Shown here: positions 21,041-56,200 of the stretch, one piece after another
Position numbering within the stretch: the first letter of the stretch is position 1
Layout: each line of letters starts with the position of its first letter
Assembly (NCBI GenBank): GCA_030765645.1
Contig: JAVCCE010000074.1
Coordinates: 41,551-105,550, forward strand
From: Candidatus Hinthialibacter antarcticus
Lineage (GTDB): Bacteria; Hinthialibacterota; Hinthialibacteria; Hinthialibacterales; Hinthialibacteraceae
Direction of reading: 5' to 3'
Length of the DNA stretch: 64,000 bases
Position numbers and translations under genes: made by a program
Notes under the pieces: model-generated
Database searches by the model: none
Told to the model about the DNA's origin: nothing
Seen by the model: the letters and a program-made list of their open reading frames with translations, nothing else

Positions 21041-21529
21041 TTGATGAGCGAGAGAATCATTCGGCGGGCGACGAAAGAAGACTTGCCTTTCGTGGTCGGT
21101 TTATGGAAAGAGATGATGAACCATCATCTCTCGGTCGACCCAAGGTTTGAGTTAGGGCCTGACAACGAAGGCGCCTATCTGGAATATTTATATTCCATCA
21201 TTGATAACTATGACTACGCGCTGTTCGTCGCCGAGCATGACGCCCGCATCGTCGGCTACACCATTGGGATGATTCTCGCCAACCCGCAAGTCTTTGCGTT
21301 GGGCCGATACGGTTTCATTGCCGAGATGAGTGTCAGCGCCGACTTACAGCGGCAAGGCGCCGGGCGCGAACTCTGGGAGCGGGTGCGGCATTGGTTTAAA
21401 CGGCGCGGCGTCAAAGTCATTCAACTCAACGTCTCGCCGCGCAACATAAAGGGATACGACTTTTGGAAACAGCTTGGATGCGATGAGTTTTTGCATATCC
21501 TATGGCACGACATCCCCAAAGACGCATAA
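21041..21529 (+). CDS. GNAT-family N-acetyltransferase.
   Basis: 'IAEMSVSADLQRQGAGRELWERV' is the acetyl-CoA-binding motif A (Q/RxxGxG/A). Confidence 0.7.
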   Translation: MMSERIIRRATKEDLPFVVGLWKEMMNHHLSVDPRFELGPDNEGAYLEYLYSIIDNYDYALFVAEHDARIVGYTIGMILANPQVFALGRYGFIAEMSVSADLQRQGAGRELWERVRHWFKRRGVKVIQLNVSPRNIKGYDFWKQLGCDEFLHILWHDIPKDA

Positions 21530-21598
21530 CGGAACCACAAAACATGCAACCTCGCGGCGCGTGATGCGCTGTGATGAATTCGGGAGTAATCAGTCCGT

Positions 21599-22495
21599 AT
21601 GACCTCGCCAACACAAACCGCCTTGGCCTTACTTGAAATTGCGCGCCCGAAGCAATGGGTAAAAAACGCCTTCGTCTTCGCGGCGTTAATTTTTTCGCAG
21701 AATATTTTTGATGCGGGCGCCGTGCTCAACGCGACCGCCGCGTTTGCGCTGTTTTGTCTTTACTCTTCGTGCGTCTATATGATGAACGACATCGCCGACA
21801 TTGAGCGAGACCGCCAGCATCCCAAAAAACGCAATCGCCCCCTGCCCTCAGGACGCCTACGCATCCCCACGGTCATCGTCGCCGCCGTGTCGCTCTTTTG
21901 CGCGGCGTCGGTTGGCTCGGCGCTTCTATCCTCCCATTTTCTCTATGTCGGGCTGGTGTATTTCGCCGCAAACATCGTCTATTCATTTATCTGCCGCTCT
22001 ATCGTCATTCTCGACGGCATGATTATCGCACTCGGTTTCTTGCTGCGGCTGTACGCGGGCGCCATCGTGATTGGCGCGGAGGTTTCAGATTGGTTGTATT
22101 TGTGCGGCCTGTTTGTTTCATTATTTCTGGCTTTCTGCAAGCGCCGCCAGGAACTTATTTTATTGGGCGAAGAAAGCGCCGGCGACCACCGCGCCATTCT
22201 CAAAGAATATTCCACCCAGTTTCTCGACCAGATCATCTCCATCGTCACCGCATCCACCGCCGTCACCTACTCGCTCTATTGTCTCGACAAGTCACAAACG
22301 GCCGACAACCATCACGACGGTTTAATGCTGACCATCCCCTTTGTTCTTTATGGCCTTTTGCGCTATCTATACTTGGTCTATCAGAAAGACGAGGGCGGAA
22401 ACCCCAGCGAATTATTGTTGTCGGACAAGCCAATTTTGATCAATGGCGTCCTATGGCTCGGCGTCGTTTATTGGGCTTTATATATCCGTGTTTAG
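21599..22495 (+). CDS. UbiA-family polyprenyl-phosphate phosphoribosyltransferase-like (decaprenyl-phosphate 5-phosphoribosyltransferase / DPPR-synthase-like).
   Basis: 'KQWVKNAFVFAALIFS' and 'NDIADIERDRQHPKKRNRPLPSG' resemble the DPPR-synthase (Rv3806c-type) variant of the UbiA Asp-rich motif, rather than UbiA or MenA proper. 8-9 TM helices. Confidence 0.65.
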   Translation: MTSPTQTALALLEIARPKQWVKNAFVFAALIFSQNIFDAGAVLNATAAFALFCLYSSCVYMMNDIADIERDRQHPKKRNRPLPSGRLRIPTVIVAAVSLFCAASVGSALLSSHFLYVGLVYFAANIVYSFICRSIVILDGMIIALGFLLRLYAGAIVIGAEVSDWLYLCGLFVSLFLAFCKRRQELILLGEESAGDHRAILKEYSTQFLDQIISIVTASTAVTYSLYCLDKSQTADNHHDGLMLTIPFVLYGLLRYLYLVYQKDEGGNPSELLLSDKPILINGVLWLGVVYWALYIRV

Positions 22496-22697
22496 CACCG
22501 CAAACAAAAATCTTGTGTTAGACAAAAAAACAGATAGCCTAAAAGTAGAAAATCAGCTATTGACTAGATTCAATCCGCGTGTAATTTACGCGCAAGAACA
22601 CTCGCCGAATGAAACGGCGGGAAGCACAGGAAATCATTAGATGATCTCACCCTACAGACGACCCTACCGTAGGCTGGGAGATCAGAGGAGAGCGGCC

Positions 22698-23129
22698 ATG
22701 CAGACAGTCCATCCGCGGTTGAGGAACGCAGTGGTTCCAGTTCAATTCTTCGTCGCAACAAAACTTACAGAAAGCGCAGTCGCCATTTGGTCGGTTGACC
22801 CAAGCGGTCAGGTACAGCCCGCCTTGCTGGCGATTAACTATGAAAGCGATGAATCGCTTTCCTCTCCTGACGACGTGATCTTCTCGGATTGGGACAATGA
22901 AGATGACGACTATGACTACGACGATGGTTTAGATGACGACCTCGATGACGATGACGACGATGATCTGGACGACGACGACGACGACGATGATGACGATGAT
23001 GATGATGATGACTTAGATGACGACCTCGATGATGATGACGACGACGAAGAGGACGAAGATGAAGAGGACGGCTTCGATGACGACATTGACGATATCGAGA
23101 TTGGCGCCGATGACGAAGATGAATTTTAG
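22698..23129 (+). CDS. Extremely acidic Asp-rich (poly-D) low-complexity protein, 143 aa.
   Basis: GAGGAG SD with a 7-nt spacer before the ATG at 22698. The C-terminal 95 aa is about 70% Asp/Glu ('DDDLDDDDDDDLDDDDDDDDDDDDDDD'). GAT/GAC codons alternate. A strong terminator follows directly. Confidence 0.5.
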   Translation: MQTVHPRLRNAVVPVQFFVATKLTESAVAIWSVDPSGQVQPALLAINYESDESLSSPDDVIFSDWDNEDDDYDYDDGLDDDLDDDDDDDLDDDDDDDDDDDDDDDLDDDLDDDDDDEEDEDEEDGFDDDIDDIEIGADDEDEF

Positions 23130-23137
23130 CGATTACG

Positions 23138-23183
23138 CGTAAGGGCATAGCGAGGCTGCGCCCTTACGTTATGTTTCGTTATT
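23138..23183. terminator. Bidirectional rho-independent terminator between the poly-D gene (+) and the FAD oxidoreductase (-).
   Basis: 9-bp stem CGTAAGGGC (23138-23146) / GCCCTTACG (23160-23168), then T-rich 'TTATGTTTCGTTATT'. Confidence 0.55.
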
Positions 23184-23204: not shown

Positions 23205-24533
23205 TTATGCGGTCAGCGCTTCGAGTTCCCCAAGATGCACCAGCAACTCTTCCGCCATTTTGATGCTGTAATTCATGCCGCGATCTTCGGGATAAATCTG
23301 CGCCATGGTGCAAAGATACAGGCCCTGCAAGGGCGTATCAAACGAGGGGCGCCGCTTCGAGTAATGCAGCCCAATCACCGGCTGAGTAAACTCGGCCTTT
23401 GAAATCGTCGCGCACTGGATCCACTCGCGCTGAAACGCCGGAAACATTTTCTCTAATCCCTGAATGAAGATTTCCTGCACGTCAGGCAGTTTCATGCTGA
23501 AGTAGGGGTGGTCGGCGTTCAAATAGCGCGATAAATAAATGGGGACCAGCCCGTCATATCCCGGGTCGTTAAACAAGCGCGTGTGTTCAATCACCGCGAC
23601 GAACGGCGCGTCAGGATGGGTCACGTTCAGCCAGTAATAGGGCGAGATCGAACGATCAAGCCCCATCGCCATGGTGACGTTGGCCTGATAGGGAACCTGG
23701 TCAACATCGCGGCGGTAATCGTCCGGCAGTTCCGGCGCCATTTCGAGAAAACTGGGGATGCTGGGCGTCACAATCACACGGTCAAAAGTTTCCTCGCCGG
23801 AACGAGTACGAACCACCAAGCCGTCCGGCGTTTTTTCGATGCGCTTGACGATCTCACGAAAGCGAAACTCGCCGCCCCAGCCTTCGATTTTTTTGCCCAT
23901 GCCTTCATAAATCTGCGCCCAGCCGTCTTTCATATAACCCAGGCTTTCGCCGCCGGTTTCTGAGCGGGTGCCGCCGCGCAATTTGATCTTGCCCCAAAAC
24001 CACACAGCAGACACTTCGCGATAGCGGTCGCCGAATTTTGAGCGCAACAGCGGTTCCCACAAAATGCGGTAGGCAGGCTCGCCCATTTCGCGAATGATAA
24101 AATCTTCCGCCGTGATCGACTCGAGTTCTTCAAACGACTCGCGGCGCCGCATCCGCAACACTGCGAGACCGACGCGGATACGCGACAAAAACGGCAGCGG
24201 CTTAAACAGCAAAAGGTCTTTGGGTTTGGTGAATGGATATAACTTGCCCGCGTGTTCAAAGCCGACCGACGAGTCGCACCAATGCAATTTGTCCGTCAGC
24301 CCTAAACGCCCGGCGTAAGCCTGCACGTGGGTATCGCTGGTGAAGATGTGGTGATAAAAACGGTCAAGCGAGGTCTTGCCAAACGGGATATCCGCCGCCA
24401 GCCCGCCCAGGCCGTTCCATTTTTCATACACAGCGACGGAATGACCGTTCTGGGCCAAATGCCAGGCGAGCGTACATCCAGCGGCGCCGCCGCCGACGAT
24501 GGCGTATTTAAGCGGCTTACTTGGCTTTGTCAT
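23205..24533 (-). CDS. NAD(P)/FAD-dependent oxidoreductase (amine-oxidase / protoporphyrinogen-oxidase-like Rossmann family).
   Basis: 'KYAIVGGGAAGCTLAWHLAQNGHSVAVYEK' is a GxGxxG dinucleotide-binding motif followed by an acidic residue. 442 aa. Overlaps the cimA stop by 17 nt, so they are likely co-transcribed. Confidence 0.6.
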   Translation of the reverse strand: MTKPSKPLKYAIVGGGAAGCTLAWHLAQNGHSVAVYEKWNGLGGLAADIPFGKTSLDRFYHHIFTSDTHVQAYAGRLGLTDKLHWCDSSVGFEHAGKLYPFTKPKDLLLFKPLPFLSRIRVGLAVLRMRRRESFEELESITAEDFIIREMGEPAYRILWEPLLRSKFGDRYREVSAVWFWGKIKLRGGTRSETGGESLGYMKDGWAQIYEGMGKKIEGWGGEFRFREIVKRIEKTPDGLVVRTRSGEETFDRVIVTPSIPSFLEMAPELPDDYRRDVDQVPYQANVTMAMGLDRSISPYYWLNVTHPDAPFVAVIEHTRLFNDPGYDGLVPIYLSRYLNADHPYFSMKLPDVQEIFIQGLEKMFPAFQREWIQCATISKAEFTQPVIGLHYSKRRPSFDTPLQGLYLCTMAQIYPEDRGMNYSIKMAEELLVHLGELEALTA

Positions 24534-26091
24534 CTAATAACAACTTATATTCAATGCTGTCGACCAGCGCTTCCCAGGAGGCTTCGATAATGTTCTCCGA
24601 CACGCCGATGGTGATCCAATCCGACACGCCGTCGGTTGATTCGATCATAACCCGCGTCTTGGCGGCGGTGCTGCGTCCCGTGTCGATGATGCGCACCTTA
24701 AAGTCGGTGAGGCGCACCTCGCTCAGCTGTGGGTATTTTTCTAACAGCGCCTTGCGCAGCGCATTGTCGAGCGCATTGACGGGGCCGTCGCCTTCGCCCG
24801 CCATAAAGAACGAATCGCCGTCGACCGTCAGCCGCACCGTCGCTTCCGACCATAAGTCGCCTGATGAATGTTGGTCGACCAGCACCCGGTACGCCACCAT
24901 ATCGAAGTGTGAGTTATACTCGCCCAGTTCTTTACGGATCAGCAACTCAAGCGAGGCTTCGGCGGCTTCAAAAAAGTAGCCTTCGTTTTCGAGCGATTTA
25001 ACTTTCGTCAGAACATTCTTGGCCACCGGCGACGATTTATCGACTTCGATGCCCATGTTTTTCAGCATGTGAAAAATATTCGACTGCCCCGAGAGTTCCG
25101 ACACCAAAATGCGCTGGCGGTTGCCGACCATGGCGGGGTCGATGTGTTCGTAGGTTTTCGAGTCGCGCTGCACCGCGCTGACGTGGATGCCGCCCTTGTG
25201 GGCGAAGGCGCTCATGCCAACGAAAGGCTGGTTGTGCTTGAGCGGTACGTTGGCCAGCTCACTGATGAACATCGACAGCCCGGCAATGGTTTGCATTTGT
25301 TCAGGCTCGATGACGTCATAGCCCATTTTATACATCAGGTTGGGCAACACGCTGGAGAGATCGGCGTTGCCGCAGCGCTCGCCGAAGCCGTTGAAGGTGC
25401 CCTGCACGTGCGTACAACCCGCTTTGATCGCCGCCAGTGAATTGGCGATCCCGCAGCCCGCGTCATTATGGGCGTGAATGCCCAACGCGCCGTCGAGTTC
25501 ATTGCGCATCTTTGTAACGATCTCAGTGATCTCATGCGGCATGGTCCCGCCGTTGGTGTCGCAAAACGCCAAGACGTCGGCGCCCGCTTCACACGCGGCC
25601 TTCACGGTCTGCAACGCATAGTCGGGATTGTTCTTATAGCCGTCAAAAAAATGTTCGGCGTCATAAATCACGATGCGCCCGTTCTCTTTGAGAAAACGGA
25701 CCGTGTCGCGAATCATGTCGAGATTGTCTTCCAATTTAATGCGCAGCGCATTGGTGACGTGTAGGTCCCAGGTTTTGCCGAAGATCGACACCGCTGCGGT
25801 TTCCGCTTCGATCAACGCGCAGACGTTGGGGTCTTCTTCGACCTTGTTGCGCGCATGGCGGGTGCTGCCGAAAGCGCATAACTTGGCGTGTTTGAATTGA
25901 ACGTCTTTGGCCCGTTGAAAAAACCCGATGTCTTTCGGGTTAGACCCCGGCCAACCGCCTTCGATAAAATCAATGCCAAAATCGTCCAGGCGCTGCGCGA
26001 TGCGCAGTTTGTCTTCTAAGGACAGATTTACGCCTTCGCCCTGCGTACCATCACGCAAGGTTGTATCAAACGTCTCAATTTTCCCCGCCAA
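24517..26091 (-). CDS. cimA: (R)-citramalate synthase / 2-isopropylmalate-synthase family (CimA-type, about 524 aa).
   Basis: 'ETFDTTLRDGTQGEGVNLSLEDKLRIAQRLDDFGIDFIEGGWPGSNP' and 'HAHNDAGCGIANSLAAI' are HMGL-like DRE-TIM barrel motifs. Length and the C-terminal LeuA-dimer region fit CimA. Confidence 0.75.
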   Translation of the reverse strand: MAGKIETFDTTLRDGTQGEGVNLSLEDKLRIAQRLDDFGIDFIEGGWPGSNPKDIGFFQRAKDVQFKHAKLCAFGSTRHARNKVEEDPNVCALIEAETAAVSIFGKTWDLHVTNALRIKLEDNLDMIRDTVRFLKENGRIVIYDAEHFFDGYKNNPDYALQTVKAACEAGADVLAFCDTNGGTMPHEITEIVTKMRNELDGALGIHAHNDAGCGIANSLAAIKAGCTHVQGTFNGFGERCGNADLSSVLPNLMYKMGYDVIEPEQMQTIAGLSMFISELANVPLKHNQPFVGMSAFAHKGGIHVSAVQRDSKTYEHIDPAMVGNRQRILVSELSGQSNIFHMLKNMGIEVDKSSPVAKNVLTKVKSLENEGYFFEAAEASLELLIRKELGEYNSHFDMVAYRVLVDQHSSGDLWSEATVRLTVDGDSFFMAGEGDGPVNALDNALRKALLEKYPQLSEVRLTDFKVRIIDTGRSTAAKTRVMIESTDGVSDWITIGVSENIIEASWEALVDSIEYKLLLDDKAK

Positions 26092-26175: not shown

Positions 26176-29100
26176 TTAATGTAAGAACCAATCCGGCGTT
26201 TTGGCTTCGGCTTTGACAGTCAGCGCATTCTCCAGGCGCAGCGTTCGTCCGTTGCCCGCGCTGAGGGTCAATGTGTAGACGCCCGGCTGCAAGTCGGCAG
26301 GCAGTACGCCCTCGACCCGGTTGCAATCCAGTTGAAACACATCTTCCATCGGGACCGAATCAAACCAGGCGCGATAGCCGTCGCCGTAGGTAAAGCCCTC
26401 GCCGTCAATCGAGAGAAAGAACGGCCCGGTTTCGGTATCCAGGTCAATTTCATCTGGAACAATTGAAACCACCTGCGCGGGCGCAAACGAGGCCTCGTCC
26501 AGCCAGTCTAAACTGTTTCTCAATATTTGTTGGCCGGATTCGTCGGGCGCGGCCTCAAGCGGAAACGCCAGAAAGACGGCGCGGTAATTGCAGCCCTCAA
26601 TCGTCACGCCCACGCTGCGGCTGCTGGAACCGTTTGATGTGAAAGCCGTCTCAGCCGTCCCGCGACTGCCGATGGGGCGCACCATGTCAACGAAATCTTC
26701 GAGGCCGTTGGAATAGTTCATTGAGAACGACGCCACGCCTTCGCCGACGGGGTTGCCCGAGACGCCTGCAATGGTGCTGGCGCCCTGGTCATGCACCGCC
26801 ATGCGAACCCCGTAGGCTTCCGCCGCGAGAGTCGAATCGTCTTTCTGGTCGAAGTAATCCTGCCCCGAATGCAACAACGCCCCGCCCTCGCCGAGATAGC
26901 GCTGTAATTCGGTTTCAAATAAATGCTGCGGGTTCCAGGCGATGACAAACGCGTCAGAACTGGGGTCTCCGACGGCGTTGAAACTTTTGCCGGATTGCAC
27001 CCAAACCACGGCGTCAAACCCGTGCATATAATTCGCCGTTGGATAATCGTCTTTTCCATCGACGTCCCAATGCACATAGGTGCGCTCAATCGCGTCAAGC
27101 CAACCCATGTAGGTTTCTTCAAATGATTCACCGTTGTCGTCGTCCACCAACAACACGCTCTGCGGCCCCGGCGCCGGGACGGTGCGCATCCAGCAGGCGA
27201 TGCTGTAATTCAATCCGGTGGTGAGATTGCTGAGTTGCAGGCGCTGCTCGAGGTCCGTCAACCCACTGGGGCTAGACGCGCTCGCGGTCGCCTTGATTTC
27301 GATCTTTTCGCCAGGCGGCAACGTAAACGAATCGTCGGACAGTTCAACCGACAATGCATTATTAAACCGCACCGGGGTGATGACGTATTCACACTCTTGC
27401 GCAGAGGCATTCACGATGCGCAGATAACGCTCCACGCTGCCGCTATCGCTCAGGGTCAATCGTCCGAACCCTAATTTGGGCGGCAGCACGATGGTATCCA
27501 CTTCGCCAGCGGCGAACGCATCCACCCGGCCCGCGCCAGTTTCCATCGCGTTCGCTTCACGCGAGCCGTTGCTGTTTTTGGCGGTATTCGCCGTGGAGAT
27601 CACAATGGCCGACTTCACCCAATCGGGCGGCCAGTTGGGGTGTAACTGGCGCACCAACGCCGCCAACCCCGCCACGCGGGGCGACGCCTGGCTGGTACCG
27701 TCCACCCAACGAAATCCGCCCGCCGTAAATTGGCTTCCCGGGAAATCCTGGTCATTCTGAGTGGCGCCGAAACTGCCCGCGCCAATCGCGCTCACGTCCG
27801 GCTTGAAACTATATTCCGCCGACGGCCCCAATGATGAAAAAGTCGCCATGCGGTTCGAGGTGAACGGCTGGTCTGAAACCGGGCCGCCGATCACTTCAAT
27901 GGTCGCCTTGTCGCCGTTCGACAGCGCCTCTTTAATCGCCAGGCCAAAATCACGACCGACCAACACAACCGGAACCGATAAATTTTCGGAGTCGGGGATA
28001 ATCAATTCTGAATCCGGCCGGTCGTTTTGATAGAACAAAACCCCGCGCCCGCCGATGGCCTGCACCCGCGCCGCTTTGTCCACAAACTGACACTCGCCGC
28101 GCTGTACCAACACCCAGTCAGATGCGGACGCGCCTGCGGGAAAATCGTTGCACGCGCGACCGTCTAAGTCGCCGCCAAACGCGCCGCCGTCAAGCGTGTC
28201 GGCGTCAACCACAGAAAACGCGCCAATGATCGGCTCGGTATAAAAGCCCGACGATGCGCTCGCGTCAGACGGCGAACCGAAATTCGCCTGTTCTTCGGTG
28301 ATGACCGGTTCGCCGTTCACCCAAAGGCTGACCCGCAGCGCGTATTGATCAATGGTTCCATTGGCGCGGTGCGAATTGGTAATCGCGCCTACTGTGATGG
28401 CTTCCTCTACTTGCGCGGGCGCGCCGATGGTGAATGCGCGGCCTTCATTCTGCGCGGCAATCACAGCAACCGCGCCCGCCGCGACGGCATTGCGCACCGC
28501 GTCTAACTCAGCCGAATGATGAGGTTCATCAAACGCTGAAAAACCGAAACTCATGTTTAAAACGTCAGCCCCGTCGCTGACCGCCGCTTCGATGGCGGCG
28601 ATGATCTGCTCGCTGCTGGCGCCGTCGGTGGTGAAAATTTTGTAGTTGCCCAAGTAGGCGCGCGGCGCAACGCCGGAGAGAAACCCCAGCGGAGACTTTA
28701 CGTCCAGATTCGCAGCGGAGATCGAGGCCACGTTCGAGCCATGTCCATCGCGATCAAACAGGGTGGTGTCGCCTTGCTGACCAAAACCGGGCGGAAACAC
28801 CCGCGCGGCAATAATCTTTTTATTGGTGAAATCGGCATTGCCTTTCGGAAACCCCTCAGGATACTCATACCCATCGCCTTCAAACGCGGGGTGGGTTGCG
28901 TCAACGCCCGAATCAATAATGGCGATAAATACGCCTTCGCCTGCGTTGTCTCCAAATTCAAATTTTTCGTAGGCTTCGGGCAAACGCATCAACTGGCCGC
29001 TTTGGGTCAGGGTCGGTTTGTAGGTTTTGACGCGGGAGATGTACTTTACGTCGGGGTGTTCGCGCAATTCACCCAGCGCCTCGGCATTCATGCGAACGCT

Positions 29101-29400
29101 GAACGCGTTGATTAAGTCGGTAAATTGTGCGCCGAGCTCGGCCTGAGGATCAACCTGGCGGCATTGTTCAAACAGGCCCGATTGTTGAGCGAGCAGCTGT
29201 TGTTTGTAGGTCGTCGCCGGGACCGGCGTCCGGCTCTGTCGCGAACGGTTATTATTCTGTGAACCGCCCGCAAGCAAAGCCGGCGCTGACTTTAACACAA
29301 CAATGGAATGCAATGATTGACCGCCGGAGTAAGGCAGCGACCATACGCTGAGCGTCCCCAAAAAAAGACACAGGGACAGCCCCAATACAAAAACTTTCAT
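26176..29400 (-). CDS. Secreted subtilisin-family (S8) serine peptidase, multidomain, 1074 aa.
   Basis: Signal peptide. 'VFIAIIDSGVD' holds the Asp. 'HGSNVASI' holds the His. 'GTSQASPRVAGLAAL' holds the Ser. An inserted PA-like domain and long C-terminal beta-rich regions. SD GGAG with a 6-nt spacer before the ATG. Confidence 0.85.
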   Translation of the reverse strand: MKVFVLGLSLCLFLGTLSVWSLPYSGGQSLHSIVVLKSAPALLAGGSQNNNRSRQSRTPVPATTYKQQLLAQQSGLFEQCRQVDPQAELGAQFTDLINAFSVRMNAEALGELREHPDVKYISRVKTYKPTLTQSGQLMRLPEAYEKFEFGDNAGEGVFIAIIDSGVDATHPAFEGDGYEYPEGFPKGNADFTNKKIIAARVFPPGFGQQGDTTLFDRDGHGSNVASISAANLDVKSPLGFLSGVAPRAYLGNYKIFTTDGASSEQIIAAIEAAVSDGADVLNMSFGFSAFDEPHHSAELDAVRNAVAAGAVAVIAAQNEGRAFTIGAPAQVEEAITVGAITNSHRANGTIDQYALRVSLWVNGEPVITEEQANFGSPSDASASSGFYTEPIIGAFSVVDADTLDGGAFGGDLDGRACNDFPAGASASDWVLVQRGECQFVDKAARVQAIGGRGVLFYQNDRPDSELIIPDSENLSVPVVLVGRDFGLAIKEALSNGDKATIEVIGGPVSDQPFTSNRMATFSSLGPSAEYSFKPDVSAIGAGSFGATQNDQDFPGSQFTAGGFRWVDGTSQASPRVAGLAALVRQLHPNWPPDWVKSAIVISTANTAKNSNGSREANAMETGAGRVDAFAAGEVDTIVLPPKLGFGRLTLSDSGSVERYLRIVNASAQECEYVITPVRFNNALSVELSDDSFTLPPGEKIEIKATASASSPSGLTDLEQRLQLSNLTTGLNYSIACWMRTVPAPGPQSVLLVDDDNGESFEETYMGWLDAIERTYVHWDVDGKDDYPTANYMHGFDAVVWVQSGKSFNAVGDPSSDAFVIAWNPQHLFETELQRYLGEGGALLHSGQDYFDQKDDSTLAAEAYGVRMAVHDQGASTIAGVSGNPVGEGVASFSMNYSNGLEDFVDMVRPIGSRGTAETAFTSNGSSSRSVGVTIEGCNYRAVFLAFPLEAAPDESGQQILRNSLDWLDEASFAPAQVVSIVPDEIDLDTETGPFFLSIDGEGFTYGDGYRAWFDSVPMEDVFQLDCNRVEGVLPADLQPGVYTLTLSAGNGRTLRLENALTVKAEAKTPDWFLH

Positions 29401-50293: not shown

Positions 50294-53200
50294 TTAGAAA
50301 TTACCCGGCAAGATGAAGTCGTCCTGATAACGATATTCAAACAACCCAAGCGCAAAGTCTAACGCTTCCGTGTCAAACTGGACATCATCAGGAATCTGAA
50401 TAAAGCCGTAGTGTTTTCCGTCACGGGTAATGACAAAGTATGACCGCCCCGGAATATAAGTCGCCTCGTGGCCGATGAAATCAACTTCGCCTGTATCAAA
50501 CGGATTGGCCAGCACCATTGAATGCGTCAGAGAATTCACGATCGTTTCAGGATCCAGCGAATAAATATCGATTCCCTCGGGAAGCATCATAATTGCGCTG
50601 CGCGGATCAGGCGTAATAAACGTACCATCACCCATAACGAGGTCCGCATCCGCAGAGAAGACGGCGAATACAGGGCCGCGCTGATCAAACGAGAAGCCCC
50701 ACGGTTGTTCGACTTCAAGATCGGTAATTTCTGAAAGCACGGTTTCATCGAGTCCGTCGAAGAAGTCAAAATCACCGTCATTTTCAGCGAGAACAATTCT
50801 CGAACTCATGCTGCTCATACGAAACTGACCGTCAGCCGATTTCTTATAAATGATCTCAACGCGGTTTAAGCCGAGAGTGCTCAAAAACGTACCAGGATAC
50901 CAGGCGATTTCGAGAACGGGCTGCGTACGCGAACGGCGCAAGAACTGCTCACGGTGAATGAACAACAATGCGTATTGTTCAAACTGGTTCAGTTCAGGCA
51001 CTTCAATAAACATCGGCTTATCAACACCAGCGTTCTTAGGCGCATAGGTCGCAATCAATTTGTTCCCTGAGAGCCGCGTCAGTTCATTGTAGATTGAAAA
51101 TTCGGGATCTTCGCTGCCTGAAGTTTCTTCAAACATACGACCGAAGTTTTTGATTAAATAGACGTCAATCAACCAGGCGCGCCCATCAAGAACTTCACGA
51201 ATCCGCAACGTCTGGCCTTCCGCCGGGCGGTTGTCGACAAAGAACATTCTCGCGACGGTTTCGCCAGCAACGGCGCTATCTGTAATATCTACCGCCTGAT
51301 ACTCACAAATTGGCAGGTAGTATGACATATCGAGTAGCAGGTTGGCGCGAATCGTATCGCCTTCGTTCAACAGCGTGAAAGAGTTTTCGATCCCTTTCGA
51401 TTGCGTAATCGAAATTACTTCGGTGAGATCGAAAAACGAGTTGAGCGATTTTTTTAATCCATTAACATCGGCGCCCTGCTTATCTAAATAGCCCGGGGCC
51501 GCATGAGAAACGATCCGCTTGGCGTCTTCAGAATTAAGCGCGTCGATGATGTCATACGTGGTTGCAATAACCGATTGGAGATTGACGTTTCCGGTTTCGA
51601 CATCAACCACGGCGTCGTCATCCAGGCCCGGTGTATCCGCAAAGACAAACGCGTCGGAGGGAATCTCTGACCTTGGAATTTCATTTACGCCAAAGTAGTG
51701 AATTTCACCGCTGCCTTCAACCAGAATGTAACGGTCAGTAACGCCGGGGAAGACTTTGACCTGGCGGACTGTGCCCGGGTCAATCACTTCGCTTGGCAAT
51801 TGCGGTTGGAAAACGGCTGAGCGCAAGTTCGTTCCCGAACCGGCCCCAGTCACGCGGATGCCGCCGTCTTTGTTTACAATCACAACATTGGTTGCGGTGT
51901 TTTCTTTGACAACCAATTCGATGTCGGTGTAGAAGTTAACGTCTTCCTTCAAGTCGCTCCACACAATGTTGTTGACATTGTTGGCAAGCGTCAGAACGCC
52001 GTTGCCGGTCAGGAAGTACATATCATCGGCGCGCGGCGTGAGTTCCATGTCGCGATAGATATCCAACCCGACTGCGGGCGGACGCAACGCCGTGTTGGCC
52101 TTGCTGCCTAAGAAGAGCATATCGCCATCGCCGTCGAGAACGTAAATTGCGCCATTGGCGTAATCGACCTCAACGTCGCGGACGTTTTCAAGCGCGATCT
52201 GGGCCGCTGTCGGCGCAACAATCAACTGAGCGCCTTCAACCGAATTTTTGAGGAACGCCGTGTTTTCGCTCTTGAACGCCAACGTGCCATTGGCCTGCAG
52301 CAGCGGCAAAAATACGCCCACATCGCCAGCAGCCAAAACCCCACCGCTGCGTTGTACGCCTATCATGCCGGTAAAGGATGAATTGGGTTCAATGTCGACA
52401 ACGATGTCGGTTGTGGTCAAATCACCTAACGATGGTAAATCGCCAAGGCTGAAGGTGCGGCCATCGCTTAGTGCTTTGACCATATCAATCTTGTTCGGCA
52501 ATTCGCCATCAACAGAAATCAAGCCCGTCGATGGATCGTTGCCGCCAGAATCAACCGTGCGCGCCAGTGTGATAATGGGGCCGTCAGCGTAGGTATAAAC
52601 CAGCGGGTTTACGCCATCGTCTACGCGGGCGTAGATGTAATACTCTTGGGTCGGGTCAAAGTCAGGAATTTGGTCTAGCAGTCTCAAAGTAAACGAATTG
52701 GCCAACCCGACTTGCGGACGGACTAACGAACCGCCGATAAATGTTCCATCAAACCCGATGCCGTTATCATCGACAAACAAAGCGACTTGCGGCGAATCGT
52801 CAGGGTCTTGAACAACATACGAAATCTGATAGGTAAAGTCTGAGGTCGCGATGTTCGCCCCTGATGTTGGCGACTGGAACGTGATGCGAGGAGAAACATT
52901 TTGGCTTTGAACAACAATTTCCCCTGTCGTTAATTGTGACTTACTGATTCCACGGAACGGTTCCGTTTCAATATAGTCCGTGTTTAAGAACGAGTGATAC
53001 GCAATTCCGCCTTCAGGCGAATCAACATTAATGAAAGAACCATCATCGGTATCGAAGAACGAATACTGGGCGCCCAATTCACCTGAACGCATACGGACGC
53101 GGAACGAGTCGCCGACTTTAGCGAGCTGCGACATGCGCAACGTCACAAAGAAGTCGTTGCCAGCGAGAGGCCCGAAGTTTTCATCAGGAATCTGAATCTG

Positions 53201-56200
53201 ATACATATAGGATGTATCGTAATCGCCGGTCTCATGCCAGTTTGAAATTCCAATCGCGCTATAGGGGTGTTGGAAGGCCACTTCAACCGGATCGGGAACA
53301 TCGGGATATTCCGCTGCTTCGCCCGAGTCAGCCGCTTCGGCGTCAGCGTCAGCCACTTCCTGGTTGTAGTTATCAATGTTTTCAAGCGCACTTTCAACAG
53401 CGTCGCCAAAGGTATCGAAGAAGTCGTCTAAATAGTCGCCTATCGTATTGTTGTCGCCCAAGAATGTGTAATGACCAAACTGGGTATAAATTGGCACGTC
53501 CGGCTGGTCTGGACCGATTGGGTCGTTCGCATTTTCAGCAAACTCGGCCTCAACGCCAACCACCATCGGAACCTGGCCCACTTTTACGAAGCCGTATTGA
53601 CTTGGGAACCGCAAGGCGGATGCGAGTGAAAGCAAGAACGACCGGCGAATATCGCCGTCAGGATCGCGTACCCACGGGATATTGTCTTCATCAAGATCGC
53701 CAAACGTCAGCATCCAAAATTCTTCGCCGTCGGGGGTGACCACTTTCAGGTCTTCGGAATATAACCCTTCTGCGTTGATGGAAGGATACAAATCAATCAA
53801 GCCCATACGCGGATCAAGCGTCGGGAACATGCCCTGGTTATAGCGCGGCGAGCCAAAGTCCGGCGCCGGATCGCCTCTAAACGGACGCGAACCACGGAAC
53901 GGGTAGATTAAACTGCGGATGGTTTGGTAGAGCGAGAAGTTCAAAACGCGGAAGTCTAACTCTGCAAACCATGAGCCTTCGCCAACGCGCAACGGTAAAA
54001 TCTGGCCGTCAACTCTATCAAAAGGCGTATCCGCCGGCTCGATGGAAGTGATATATTCTTCAAATTTGGCCAGGTTATTGGGCGGAAATACATACGCCGC
54101 TTGCGCAAACCCTCCGGTTGAGCCGAACTGGTCTCGAGTAAAGGGCATGTAACGGTCATTGGCGTCAAACACGCCGTTCTCGCCTGCCGGAGTTAAATCA
54201 CCTAAATCTTCATCGATCAGACCATCGCCGTCGTCGTCCTGCAAGTTGTAAAGTTCTTCGTCAAACAGGCCGTCGCCGTCGTTATCCCGGTTATCGCCTG
54301 TCGGTGTATCGTCATCCTGATAAATAGCAATTGAGTGAGACGTTGCAATAAACGGCCCGGTTTGCGTGACGCCCAATTCAAGAGGAATCACAGAGAACAA
54401 CGCGGCAAGCGCAGTGAGCGTGGTGCCCGGCAAGAAGTCAACTTGCATTTCTCCAAGAACAGTGCTCTCAGTAAAGAACGCATCCAGCAGATCAAAACTG
54501 ACGCCTTCGCCGTTCAGCAACAAGGTCGGGTTCTGACCAAAGTCAATCGCGTCGATGCCGACAACGGCTTTGGGCGGCGACGACAAGGTGCGATCAAAAA
54601 TAACATTGTTATTGCTTGCATTTACGCCTTCGCCCGGCTGGGTGAGGTCTTGAAACGAAAAACGGGGACGTGGACGCCCAATCAGCGGGGTGGTTGAACT
54701 CGTGTTGGGACGCCCCATACCCACGCTGGATACCGACTCAAATTCGCTTTCATCTGTCGCGCCCGCAGCATATGACGCAAGGCCCGAACCGACGATGACA
54801 TCTGTCGGCTGAATGAATGGAATAATTGAATCGAGGCTGCGGACTTTATCGCTCGTTTTAACGGCCAAGTACATTTCAGGGCCGCCGTTGGCGCCAGCGC
54901 GCGTGTTCGGAGAGCGCAAGTCGCCGACCGCATTGTTACGCGAAACAGGCATTGTGATGGTAAAGCCTTGGAGCAATGGGAAATTATAAAGATCAAGCAA
55001 ATTGGATTTTTCGTTGCCCGACAACGAGGTCAAATAACGCACTTGACCTTCGGTCAGCCCTAAAAACGGGCGGGAGATGTTAATCAACTGGTCAAACATC
55101 ATGCAATCGGGGTCTTGGAAGCACTCTAACGAACCCAATGGCGGGCGAATGATCCCGTCCGCGATTGATTCGTCGCTAATGCTCGAAATCAGATCGGCAG
55201 GTAATCCAGCCAATGCGCTAGACAAATCGGAGTCGCTAAACAACCAGGGAATGACGCGTTTCGCTGCCGTGCCGCCCACGCTGCCTGGAATCATACGCTC
55301 AAGCACTTTTTGAAGCGCCGGATTGGCCGCAACGTCATCAGCGGTGATATCAAACGGGCTAATTTCTAATTGTGACGGATCAAGCGCAATGACGCGATCA
55401 ACGCCATTATCAAATTTGCCCGCCTGACCGCCGATTTCACGATACAAGAAGATGCCGCCGGCTGCGCGTTCAAGCGGTTTCAAGAAAATATCCTGGTTGG
55501 TGGTGTGAGTCGGTTCGAGGCCTGATGAACCAAACGGACGCGGGCCGTAAGGAACATAGCTCAATACATGCGAATTTAAATTGTCATTTCCCGTAAAGAA
55601 CGCCTCGCGCGGGATGCCCGCAAAATTCAGCGGCATGGTCTTGGGATACGAAATGGGCTCTTCGCCCCCGACGTTGCGCTCTTCCATCCAAATCATGCCC
55701 GGGTTTTCAGGGTCTTCCGGGAAATTATAGAAGAACGGGTTATAGAAGTACGTCGGACGAAGAACGCTCGCAAATGATTGACCGCCAAAGTTTATGCCGG
55801 TTCCAATCGCGCTAATTAAGTGGGCGACGGACGCAAGGTTTAAACCGACGAAATTCACTTTCACTTCTTTAATGAAATAATCTTCATCCGGCCGACCGAC
55901 AAAATCAAAGCCAAGCAAAGTACGCGCTTCTGACTTCGCGTCGATACGGAACGAGTTGTCGGTGTCTTTAATTAAGTTGACGATTTGAACGATGTCGCCC
56001 TGGAATATCTGGCGCTCTGCAAAGAGCGGGTTCAAGCCGACAAACGCGTCGTCAGGAAACGGCGTTTCATAGAGCGTATTTTTGGGCAGCGGGTTCCTGC
56101 GGTCGCGAATCTTGATACTGTTCGCTGGAATCATTGCCTCGAAGCGGTCGCCCTGGCGCCAGTTTAATGTCGTTTGTACGACAATATGGAAATCGGGGTG

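What the first reader, a model, noticed from the sequence alone, without database searches (positions are those of the whole stretch)
22698..23129. Stand-alone poly-aspartate protein with a proper RBS and terminator, next to a UbiA-family prenyltransferase
143 aa with a structured-looking N-terminal about 45 aa ('MQTVHPRLRNAVVPVQFFVATKLTESAVAIWSVDPSGQVQPALLAINYESDES') followed by about 95 residues that are about 70% Asp/Glu. Its own GAGGAG SD and a 9-bp-stem terminator directly after the stop argue it is expressed. Such polyanionic tails occur in DNA mimics, Ca2+/metal sequestration and biomineralisation proteins, and chaperone-like 'entropic bristles'. It lies downstream of a DPPR-synthase-like UbiA enzyme and is convergent with an FAD oxidoreductase. 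The antisense His/Arg-rich ORF (22834-23148) is the mirror image and lacks any start signal.
Basis: partly seen in the sequence, partly recalled or inferred. Interest (0 to 1): 0.5.

Follow-up and report, generated by a model that had tools for sequence, protein, structure and literature searches.

The report
Conserved orphan poly-aspartate protein gene
This is a real, selectively maintained gene for a small protein that is half aspartate; it has its own strongly conserved promoter and occurs only in relatives within the uncultivated phylum Hinthialibacterota, matches no known family, and its function remains an inference.

Summary
Window 22698-23129 (+) encodes a 143-aa protein with 57 Asp and 12 Glu. 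Its last 77 residues are 78% D/E with no K/R/H and include a run of 15 Asp.

The window is from Candidatus Hinthialibacter antarcticus (phylum Hinthialibacterota, formerly OLB16).

It is a real gene:
- Thirteen lineages carry an ortholog directly downstream of the same GNAT and UbiA genes.
- dN/dS is 0.13. Asp codons flip freely between GAT and GAC while the residue is kept.
- The indel against the nearest ortholog is in frame.
- The Shine-Dalgarno site is conserved.
- A sigma-70-like promoter (ATCAGCTATTGACT-N12-CGTGTAATKTAC) is more conserved than the protein.

The architecture is conserved: a roughly 50-aa three-stranded beta domain, a W-D motif, an aromatic-acidic patch, a polyanionic tail with hydrophobic residues every 3-4 positions, and a C-terminal acidic run ending in Phe.

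No Pfam, NCBIfam, PHROG, PDB or fold match exists.

Best inference (confidence about 0.35): an abundant cytoplasmic polyanion that binds or chaperones basic, nucleic-acid-binding proteins by electrostatic mimicry.

Rivals are a divalent-cation buffer and an accessory of the GNAT-UbiA envelope module.

The antisense His/Arg ORF is a by-product of composition.

The parts
22552..22589 (+). Conserved promoter block ATCAGCTATTGACT-N12-CGTGTAATTTAC. The -35 is TTGACT at 22560-22565 and the -10 is TAATTT at 22582-22587, with a 16-nt spacer and A/T-rich DNA upstream.
   Evidence: The same block, with the same spacing, lies 90-140 nt upstream of the start codon in 11 of the 12 lineages extracted, more weakly in L014. 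It is unique in the window, with 0 matches expected by chance. Its function as a promoter is inferred from the consensus, not measured.
22594..22697 (+). Predicted 5' untranslated leader of about 100 nt. It has a 5' hairpin (CGCCG...CGGCG, 22603-22619) and a long-range stem (GATCTC/GAGATC) next to the ribosome-binding site.
   Evidence: Highly conserved between the window, L001 and L009. RNAalifold gives a consensus structure but only one compensatory pair from three close sequences. No Rfam family matches. The start site is inferred.
22685..22690 (+). Shine-Dalgarno sequence GAGGAG, 7 nt before the ATG.
   Evidence: Read directly. GGAG-type sites sit at the same distance in every ortholog. 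The upstream in-frame ATG at 22641 is not conserved; L001 has no ATG there.
22698..23129 (+). Coding sequence of the 143-aa poly-aspartate protein, stop codon included.
   Evidence: ORF listing. Syntenic orthologs in 13 lineages. dN/dS is 0.13 against L001, and the 27-nt indel is in frame.
22698..22841 (+). N-terminal domain, residues 1-48: a predicted three-stranded antiparallel beta meander.
   Evidence: Two AlphaFold2 runs agree on strands 16-21, 27/28-33 and 39-41/46, with pLDDT 60-82 there. The hydrophobic strand pattern and Gly37 are conserved in the family alignment. No fold or sequence match was found.
22878..22919 (+). Junction motif, residues 61-74: IFSDWD NEDDD YDYD. It comprises a hydrophobic stretch, the near-invariant W65-D66, and an alternating aromatic/Asp patch.
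   Evidence: W65 and D66 are conserved in at least 90% of 12 aligned members. The Y/F-D-Y/F-D patch recurs across lineages.
22896..23126 (+). Polyanionic tail, residues 67-143: 51 Asp, 9 Glu, no K/R/H, and 12 hydrophobic residues.
   Evidence: Composition and spacing statistics. Predicted disordered. pN is 0.09-0.10 with saturated synonymous sites.
23073..23126 (+). C-terminal motif, residues 126-143: FDDDIDDIEIGADDEDEF. Periodic hydrophobics are followed by an acidic run ending in Phe.
   Evidence: In the last 16 codons, six synonymous and no non-synonymous changes separate the window from L001, apart from the final F/I. Ten of 12 complete family members end in [DE] runs plus Phe; the others end in I or in DDD, and L111 ends in L.
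23137..23183 (+). Terminator-like hairpin (23137-23169) with a U-rich tail (23170-23183), between the convergent genes.
   Evidence: Fold energy z = -3.0. Comparable hairpins follow the stop in L009, L015 and L016, but not in every lineage.
21041..22495 (+). Upstream conserved partners: GNAT acetyltransferase (21041-21529) and UbiA-family decaprenyl-phosphate phosphoribosyltransferase-like enzyme (21599-22495).
   Evidence: Pfam PF00583 and PF01040. The NCBI name for the identical UbiA protein is given. GNAT-UbiA-polyD order holds in all 13 lineages, including two whose downstream genes differ.
22834..23148 (-). Antisense His/Arg-rich ORF. It is judged not to be a gene.
   Evidence: Synonymous GAT/GAC changes in the sense frame become His/Arg changes in this frame (read). 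An ATG-started antisense ORF of this size occurs only in the window. Its start lies inside the terminator hairpin.

Best explanation
Shown: window 22698-23129 is a monocistronic, protein-coding gene of Candidatus Hinthialibacter antarcticus. It founds an orphan family found here only in relatives whose UbiA is at least 55% identical, most simply the phylum Hinthialibacterota (formerly OLB16). Each member has four parts: a small N-terminal beta-sheet domain; a W-D plus aromatic/acidic junction; a roughly 60-77-residue tail that is 68-79% Asp/Glu with essentially no basic residues; and a C-terminal acidic run that usually ends in Phe.

Inferred: the gene is transcribed from its own strong sigma-70-type promoter, and the product is an abundant cytoplasmic polyanion. 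The disordered tail imitates the charge of nucleic acid or another polyanion. It would wrap basic surfaces of one or more nucleic-acid-binding proteins, such as nucleoid proteins, ribosomal proteins or polymerases. The regularly spaced Leu/Phe/Tyr/Ile residues and the terminal Phe would insert into hydrophobic pockets and supply specificity. The beta domain would oligomerise the protein or tether it to a second partner. The net effect would be a decoy or chaperone that holds basic proteins off nucleic acid or keeps them soluble.

Confidence differs by layer. The gene and family claims are about 0.95. The mechanism is about 0.35, which is the figure entered below.
For: - **Real gene.** The ORF, Shine-Dalgarno site and hairpin are confirmed. 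Orthologs lie in the same position in 13 lineages whose UbiA neighbour is 55-92% identical. dN/dS is 0.13 overall, and tail pN is about 0.09 with saturated synonymous sites. The 27-nt indel is in frame.
- **Own promoter.** TTGAC[AT]-N16-TA[AC][TC][GT]T with flanking conserved bases is found in the 12 lineages extracted and is unique in the window.
- **Organism.** The neighbouring proteins are identical to MDP8246206.1, MDP8246208.1 and MDP8246209.1 of Ca. Hinthialibacter antarcticus.
- **Partner binding rather than ion binding alone.** 51% of gaps between successive hydrophobic residues in the tails are 3 or 4, against 24% in shuffles (0 of 5000 shuffles reach this).
- **Position-conserved motifs.** W-D, Y/F-D-Y/F-D, a central L-F, and a terminal [DE]n-F are conserved.
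- **Constrained tail length.** It was 59-77 residues in the eight tails measured.
- **Selection is for charge.** The Asp:Glu ratio ranges from 51:9 to 23:21, so Asp chemistry itself is not what is kept.
- **Location.** No signal peptide or membrane segment is evident in the sequence, which points to the cytoplasm.
- **Precedents for the mechanism.** SPO1 Gp44 has a folded 55-aa N-domain plus a 57% D/E disordered region with no basic residues; that region mimics ssDNA and binds RNA polymerase (PMC8208478). Prothymosin-alpha binds histone H1 while both stay disordered (PMC7661507). The SSB C-terminal acidic tip ending in Phe docks onto many partners (PMC10143822).
Against: - No partner has been identified. 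The 64-kb window holds no convincing very basic protein gene other than the antisense artefact.
- The hydrophobic periodicity has another possible cause. Bulky residues in the ribosomal exit tunnel counteract the ribosome destabilisation that acidic runs cause (10.1101/2021.02.02.429294), so they may be there only to make the tail translatable.
- Strict linkage to GNAT-UbiA hints at a role in that pathway rather than with nucleic-acid-binding proteins.
- The structure models are of low confidence (mean pLDDT 58-60).
- No expression data were available.
Confidence: 0.35

Rival explanations
1. Divalent-cation buffer or store. The tail, with a net charge of about -41 to -60, binds Mg2+, Ca2+ or polyamines with low affinity and high capacity, as calsequestrin and Asp-rich mineralisation proteins do. 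A refinement: completing translation of an acidic run depends on Mg2+, so synthesis of the buffer would itself rise with Mg2+ and give a simple feedback.
For: The tail is 68-79% Asp/Glu with no basic residues. The promoter looks strong, which suits a stoichiometric buffer. In E. coli, acidic runs abort translation more often at low Mg2+.
Against: Position-conserved hydrophobic and aromatic motifs, the terminal Phe, the conserved N-terminal domain and the constrained tail length are not needed for ion binding. There is no signal peptide, so the protein sits where free Ca2+ is low. No cation transporter is linked. The feedback idea is extrapolated from E. coli.
Confidence: 0.2
2. Accessory subunit or regulator of the GNAT-UbiA module. 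The protein would act with the decaprenyl-phosphate phosphoribosyltransferase-like enzyme and the acetyltransferase in making a polyprenyl-phosphate-linked sugar for the envelope. One possibility is that it docks onto the basic cytoplasmic loop of UbiA (HPKKRNRPLPSGR) or mimics the polyanionic substrate PRPP.
For: GNAT-UbiA-polyD order is kept in all 13 lineages, including L009 and L111 where the genes downstream are different. UbiA homologs at or below 54% identity from other phyla have neither the GNAT arrangement nor an acidic ORF.
Against: The gene has its own promoter 130-200 nt after UbiA, so it is not translationally coupled. In most lineages the whole block, including unrelated genes such as citramalate synthase and an S8 peptidase, is syntenic, so linkage may only reflect shared descent within one phylum. 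The many UbiA homologs elsewhere work without such a partner.
Confidence: 0.15
3. Exported acidic protein. It would leave the cell by a route that uses a C-terminal signal and act outside as a Ca2+-binding or mineral-nucleating matrix.
For: Poly-Asp proteins control mineralisation in animals. The C-terminus is conserved.
Against: There is no N-terminal signal peptide. No type I secretion genes are adjacent in any locus. There are no RTX-type repeats.
Confidence: 0.05
4. Not a functional protein. The ORF would be a by-product of a GAT/GAC microsatellite, or the real gene would be the antisense His/Arg ORF.
For: The antisense of poly-Asp codons has no stop codons, so long open frames arise on both strands. 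One public assembly (GCA_016125385.1) leaves the region uncalled.
Against: Purifying selection acts in the + frame. The non-repetitive N-terminal domain, SD and promoter are conserved across 13 lineages. The repeat is impure: 68-70% matches at period 3 or 6. The antisense ATG ORF is not conserved.
Confidence: 0.02

Closest known systems
Bacillus phage SPO1 Gp44 (disordered DNA-mimic inhibitor of RNA polymerase; PMC8208478)
   Same: Both have a small folded N-terminal domain of about 50 residues, followed by a disordered region made mostly of Asp/Glu with no Lys, Arg or His. Both are toxic or active through electrostatic imitation of nucleic acid.
   Different: There is no sequence or fold similarity: tblastn against phages and the fold searches found nothing. 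The Gp44 N-domain is helical and binds DNA, whereas this one is predicted all-beta. Gp44 is 57% D/E over 67 residues, this tail 78% over 77. Gp44 is a phage takeover protein, while this is a chromosomal gene conserved across the Hinthialibacterota lineages sampled.
Prothymosin-alpha and other eukaryotic polyanionic histone chaperones (PMC7661507)
   Same: A roughly 110-140-residue protein dominated by Asp/Glu that stays disordered. It would bind very basic partners by charge. In histone chaperones, aromatic residues embedded in acidic runs give specificity.
   Different: Those proteins are eukaryotic and nuclear, and not homologous. Prothymosin has no folded domain and no regular hydrophobic spacing. 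No histone-like partner is known in Hinthialibacterota.
C-terminal acidic tip of bacterial SSB (DDDIPF) (PMC10143822, PMC4872115)
   Same: An acidic run ends in a C-terminal Phe at the end of a disordered tail. This is a proven docking motif for many DNA-metabolism enzymes.
   Different: The Ile-Pro before the Phe is absent. There is no OB-fold domain. The acidic region is ten times longer. Three of 13 members end in I, L or D.
Calsequestrin and Asp-rich biomineralisation proteins
   Same: Long poly-Asp stretches with high negative charge density.
   Different: Those proteins are secreted or luminal and work by binding Ca2+. This protein has no signal peptide, tolerates wholesale Asp-to-Glu exchange, and carries conserved hydrophobic motifs.
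MgtL-type acidic leader peptides acting through intrinsic ribosome destabilisation (10.1101/2021.02.02.429294)
   Same: Runs of acidic residues that are hazardous for the bacterial ribosome to translate.
   Different: Those are very short leader ORFs in front of a regulated gene, with the acidic residues at the N-terminus. Here the acidic run starts after more than 60 residues, the ORF is 143 codons, and a terminator with a convergent gene follows.

Membership tests
Any curated protein family (Pfam-A, NCBIfam, PHROGs) or solved structure | Significant profile or sequence match | tested here: not met
   Pfam gave 0 families for the window protein and for the N-terminal domains of 8 members, even at E <= 10. 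Across 12 full-length members, the only hits were single sub-threshold ones: NOA36 at E 0.11 and AtcA at E 0.073. A PDB profile search gave 0 hits at E <= 10.
Any known fold | Structural match of the predicted N-terminal domain | tested here: inconclusive
DNA-mimic proteins (functional class) | Strongly acidic surface or chain with few or no basic residues | tested here: met
   The tail is 68-79% D/E. There are no K/R/H in the eight tails counted and one Lys in P0142.
DNA-mimic proteins (functional class) | Binds the DNA-binding site of a target protein and competes with DNA | not testable with these tools
   Needs biochemistry. No candidate target was found in the window.
SSB C-terminal tip-like docking motif | Disordered tail ending in acidic residues plus a C-terminal Phe | tested here: met
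   Ten of 13 members end in [DE]2-5 followed by F, with one V intervening in L014. The window ends DDEDEF.
SSB C-terminal tip-like docking motif | Consensus D-D-D-I-P-F attached to an OB-fold ssDNA-binding domain | tested here: not met
   No Ile-Pro precedes the Phe. No SSB/OB-fold Pfam match was found.
Calsequestrin-like or biomineralisation Asp-rich proteins | Secretory or luminal targeting (signal peptide) and a specific requirement for Asp | tested here: not met
   No signal-peptide-like N-terminus is visible in the sequences; the first hydrophobic stretch is predicted to be a beta strand. No dedicated signal-peptide predictor was run. Asp:Glu ranges from 51:9 to 23:21 between members.
Acidic leader peptide acting by ribosome destabilisation (MgtL type) | Short ORF with an N-terminal acidic/Pro motif upstream of a co-oriented regulated gene | tested here: not met
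   The ORF has 143 codons and the acidic run begins after residue 66. It is followed by a hairpin and a convergent gene.
Type II antitoxin with a beta N-domain and acidic tail (MazE/AbrB-like) | Adjacent co-transcribed toxin gene and an AbrB/SpoVT-type domain | tested here: not met
   The neighbours are UbiA and a convergent oxidoreductase in all loci. No AbrB/MazE Pfam match was found.
New Hinthialibacterota polyanionic protein family (defined here) | Beta N-domain, then W-D junction, then a tail of at least 59 residues and at least 68% D/E with periodic hydrophobics, encoded after GNAT-UbiA behind the ATCAGCTATTGACT promoter | tested here: met
   The window protein shows every feature.

The most novel reading that the evidence does not exclude
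Bacteria of a PVC-related candidate phylum make an abundant, dedicated polyanionic disordered chaperone. It would be a bacterial counterpart of prothymosin-alpha or nucleoplasmin, governing a histone-like or other very basic nucleoid or ribosomal protein. Because a run of more than 50 acidic residues is intrinsically hard to translate, its output could be gated by ribosome stability and Mg2+. That would make the gene both a sensor and an effector of cellular polycation/polyanion balance.
Probability: 0.12. Interest if true: 0.75.

Novelty: new variant of a known kind. Interest (0 to 1): 0.5.

Why it matters
Three reasons.

First, it is a clean example of a low-complexity ORF that at least one public assembly leaves uncalled (L011) but that is demonstrably under purifying selection. 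This argues against discarding such ORFs automatically.

Second, work in E. coli shows that runs of acidic residues destabilise the translating ribosome. A conserved bacterial gene with 15 consecutive Asp, and 60 acidic residues among its last 77, is a natural test of how far a ribosome can be pushed. It may also show which sequence features rescue translation: a long bulky N-terminal segment and periodic bulky residues.

Third, if the tail is an electrostatic decoy or chaperone, it would extend a mechanism known from phage takeover proteins and eukaryotic histone chaperones to the housekeeping biology of an uncultivated phylum.

The very conserved promoter also gives a first handle on strong promoters in Hinthialibacterota.

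Tried and rejected
- **Word-indexed search of 5.8 billion proteins.** With the N-terminal 77 aa it found only one cluster, P0001. With an 8-sequence N-terminal alignment it scored nothing, not even known members. I cannot explain that result; it may be the tool's filtering.
- **Full HMMER scan of 1.84 billion representatives.** With a two-sequence profile it found only P0001, plus four weak multi-stretch hits that I regard as spurious.
- **UbiA-alignment scan of GTDB genomes.** It therefore served as a negative control and did not identify the taxon.
- **Hand-made degenerate DNA pattern.** It recovered one more member, L101, plus nine unrelated proteins that merely share a WDDEDDEYDFD-like patch.
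- **Rfam on the locus.** It gave only sub-threshold C/D-box noise caused by GATGA repeats.
- **Fold searches and family libraries.** They found nothing, and afdb50 was unavailable.
- **Exact-sequence look-ups.** Both possible start versions of the window protein, and the antisense ORFs, were absent from the collection. I could not establish how the public annotation treats this gene. The accession gap between MDP8246206 and MDP8246208 suggests something is annotated there.
- **Ideas considered and rejected.** A riboswitch or sRNA in the conserved upstream block: the motif has promoter geometry and no Rfam hit. A toxin-antitoxin pair: there is no toxin gene. A leader-peptide attenuator: there is no downstream cistron. 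A phage or plasmid origin: tblastn found nothing.
Full report
**1. The observation**

Window 22698-23129 (+) is an ATG-to-TAG ORF of 143 codons. It has 57 Asp and 12 Glu codons.

The 77 residues after the W65-D66 pair hold 51 Asp, 9 Glu, 12 hydrophobic residues and no Lys, Arg or His. The longest Asp run is 15.

GAGGAG lies at 22685-22690, 7 nt upstream of the ATG.

After the stop codon there is a hairpin at 23137-23169, a 10-bp stem with a 4-bp inner stem, followed by a U-rich stretch. The 74-nt region folds at -26.8 kcal/mol, z = -3.0 against dinucleotide shuffles. The consensus terminator scan missed it because the stem is interrupted.

Upstream is a UbiA-family gene (PF01040, 21599-22495). 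Downstream and convergent is an amine-oxidase-type FAD oxidoreductase at 23205-24533.

No other ORF in the 64-kb window reaches 55% D/E in any 40-residue stretch.

**2. Source organism**

The neighbouring UbiA, oxidoreductase and citramalate synthase proteins are identical to MDP8246206.1, MDP8246208.1 and MDP8246209.1 of Candidatus Hinthialibacter antarcticus. This is the type MAG of the candidate phylum Hinthialibacterota, formerly OLB16 and once placed in Omnitrophota. It came from Ace Lake, Antarctica (PMC9324843).

**3. Is it a gene?**

A direct search found one homolog, P0001: 134 aa, 74% identical over the full length. It sits in the same position in a related genome.

I then followed the upstream UbiA protein through its homologs and read the DNA downstream of each. 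This revealed an acidic ORF in every lineage whose UbiA is 55-92% identical to the window's:

| Locus |
|---|
| L009, L010 |
| L011 (left uncalled in assembly GCA_016125385.1) |
| L013 (partial) |
| L014, L015, L016 |
| L107, L108, L109 |
| L111 |

A degenerate DNA pattern recovered one more, L101, again after GNAT-UbiA. That makes 13 lineages.

In contrast, none of 80 loci around more distant UbiA homologs (at or below 54% identity, other phyla) has such an ORF. Nor does L110, at 53%.

Selection analysis by Nei-Gojobori on codon alignments gave:
- dN/dS = 0.13 for the window against L001. The neighbouring genes give 0.04-0.07.
- In the N-terminal domain, dN/dS is 0.13-0.37.
- In the tail, the non-synonymous proportion is only 0.09-0.10 while synonymous sites are saturated. 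GAT and GAC interchange freely and the residue stays Asp.

The one indel between the window and L001 is 27 nt, which is in frame.

In the antisense His/Arg frame the same GAT/GAC changes become His/Arg replacements. An ATG-started antisense ORF of 100 aa or more exists only in the window.

The nucleotide repeat is impure: 68-70% matches at period 3 or 6.

The ORF is therefore translated in the + frame and kept by selection on the protein. The upstream in-frame ATG at 22641 is not conserved, while the SD site before 22698 is, so 22698 is the start.

**4. Its own promoter**

The intergenic DNA upstream is more conserved than the coding sequence.

Extracting this region from 12 lineages shows a shared block, ATCAGCTATTGACT-N12-CGTGTAAT(G/T)TAC, in 11 of them, more weakly in L014. 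This is a -35 TTGAC(T/A), a 16-nt spacer and a -10 TAAT(G/T)T, with variants TACCTT and TATCGT. It lies 90-140 nt before the ATG and has A/T-rich DNA upstream. L111 keeps the TTGACT but differs in the rest.

In the window the block is at 22552-22589 and is unique: 0 matches are expected by chance with up to 3 mismatches.

That it is a promoter is inferred from geometry. Its conservation across proteins that are only 30-40% identical suggests strong or specially controlled expression.

The roughly 100-nt leader has a 5' hairpin and a long-range stem next to the SD. With three close sequences there is almost no covariation, so this stays open. Rfam has nothing.

**5. Anatomy of the family**

- **(i) N-terminal domain.** Residues 1 to about 50 have three hydrophobic segments. 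Two AlphaFold2 runs predict a beta meander: strands 16-21, 27/28-33 and 39-41/46. Local pLDDT is 60-82 and the mean is 58-60.
- **(ii) Junction.** A short linker leads to a hydrophobic-x-x-W-D junction. W65 and D66 are at least 90% conserved.
- **(iii) Aromatic/acidic patch.** An alternating patch follows (YDYD, YDFDY, YEYEY).
- **(iv) Acidic tail.** The tail is 59-77 residues, 68-79% D/E, with a central L-F in most lineages and hydrophobic residues at regular intervals. Of the gaps between successive hydrophobic residues, 51% are 3 or 4, against 24% in shuffled tails; 37% are exactly 4, against 11%. None of 5000 shuffles reaches either value.
- **(v) C-terminus.** It is an acidic run ending in Phe in 10 of 13 members. 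The others end in I, L or DDD.

The Asp:Glu ratio varies from 51:9 to 23:21, so charge is what is conserved, not Asp itself.

No signal peptide or membrane segment is apparent.

**6. Comparison with known families**

| Search | Result |
|---|---|
| Pfam, NCBIfam, PHROGs | no match |
| PDB sequence profile | no match |
| Foldseek on PDB and viral models | no match |
| tblastn on phages and plasmids | no match |
| Full HMMER scan of 1.84 billion representatives, two-sequence profile | only P0001 |

This is an orphan family. On present evidence it is confined to the relatives sampled here, most simply Hinthialibacterota.

**7. Mechanism**

What is shown:
- The gene is a real protein-coding gene under purifying selection.
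- The sequence has no signal peptide or membrane segment.
- The protein is extremely polyanionic, with a small beta domain and position-conserved hydrophobic motifs.
- It is genetically linked to GNAT-UbiA.

What is inferred is the function, together with the promoter, independent transcription and cytoplasmic location on which it rests.

I favour, at about 0.35, an electrostatic decoy or chaperone for basic nucleic-acid-binding proteins. Conserved, regularly spaced hydrophobic and aromatic residues, a constrained tail length and a terminal Phe are the hallmarks of disordered regions that grip protein partners. They are superfluous for ion binding.

Working precedents exist:
- SPO1 Gp44 has a folded 55-aa N-domain plus a 57% D/E region with no basic residues. 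That region mimics ssDNA and binds RNA polymerase (PMC8208478).
- Prothymosin-alpha binds histone H1 while both stay disordered (PMC7661507).
- The SSB acidic tip ending in Phe docks onto many partners (PMC10143822).

The main weakness is that the hydrophobic periodicity could have a different cause. In E. coli, acidic runs destabilise the translating ribosome, and this is counteracted by a long preceding nascent chain and by bulky residues in the tunnel (10.1101/2021.02.02.429294). The family's layout fits that rule: more than 60 mostly bulky residues come first, followed by bulky residues sprinkled through the tail.

The rivals are a cation buffer, possibly gated by the same Mg2+-dependent translation effect (0.20), and an accessory of the GNAT-UbiA envelope module (0.15). 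The second is supported by linkage that survives rearrangement of the downstream genes in L009 and L111. Export and artefact are unlikely.

**8. Verdict**

By sequence it is a new protein family. By probable mode of action it is a new variant of a known kind: polyanionic disordered proteins and nucleic-acid mimics.

Interest is moderate (0.5). It is an unusually well-supported orphan with extreme composition, relevant to the limits of bacterial translation and to the biology of an uncultivated phylum, but it has no experimental handle yet.

Noticed in passing
window 22552-22589; L001 7856-7893; L009, L011, L013-L016, L101, L107-L109: The promoter-like block ATCAGCTATTGACT-N12-CGTGTAATKTAC is better conserved across the lineages than the protein it precedes. 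Conserved bases extend beyond the -35 and -10 hexamers, which could mean a regulator site or a phylum-specific strong-promoter consensus.
   Followed up: partly
window 22594-22697: The 5' leader has a conserved hairpin (22603-22619; the loop changes and the stem is kept in L001) and a GATCTC/GAGATC long-range stem abutting the Shine-Dalgarno site. This may be translational control. Covariation from three close sequences is too thin to judge.
   Followed up: partly
L011 3908-4762 (GCA_016125385.1, WGLV01000029.1): The public gene calls leave an 856-nt gap where the poly-acidic ortholog lies. Genes of this family can evidently be missed by automatic annotation.
   Followed up: yes
L009 6522-9491 and L111 4629-6159: In two lineages the genes downstream of the polyD gene are different: a 989-aa protein in one, and a CDP-alcohol phosphatidyltransferase plus an FlgM-like gene in the other. 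GNAT-UbiA-polyD stays intact in both.
   Followed up: partly
L103 1397-1909, L105 640-1152, L106 1840-2373: An unrelated family of about 170 aa, starting MKLTEKMSYLQGL and carrying CxxC pairs, has a very similar embedded patch (DWDDDDEDFDFDDDDD). It was picked up only by the DNA pattern search. The patch may be a convergent short motif.
   Followed up: no
window 24517-24533: The FAD oxidoreductase gene (23205-24533, -) and the citramalate synthase gene (24517-26091, -) overlap by 17 nt, which suggests one operon on the minus strand. The same pair is adjacent in most related loci.
   Followed up: no
window 50297-56737 (-) and 26176-29400 (-): Two very large predicted secreted proteins lie in the window: one of 2147 aa with a signal-peptide-like start, and a 1074-aa S8 peptidase with a PA domain. 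Both fit the polymer-degrading lifestyle proposed for this organism.
   Followed up: no
The profile search with the 8-sequence N-terminal alignment returned no hit at E <= 1 among 1083 candidates, although P0001 is in that database and had scored 1e-27 with a single sequence. This is unexplained tool behaviour, so the absence of hits there should not be read as absence of relatives.
   Followed up: no
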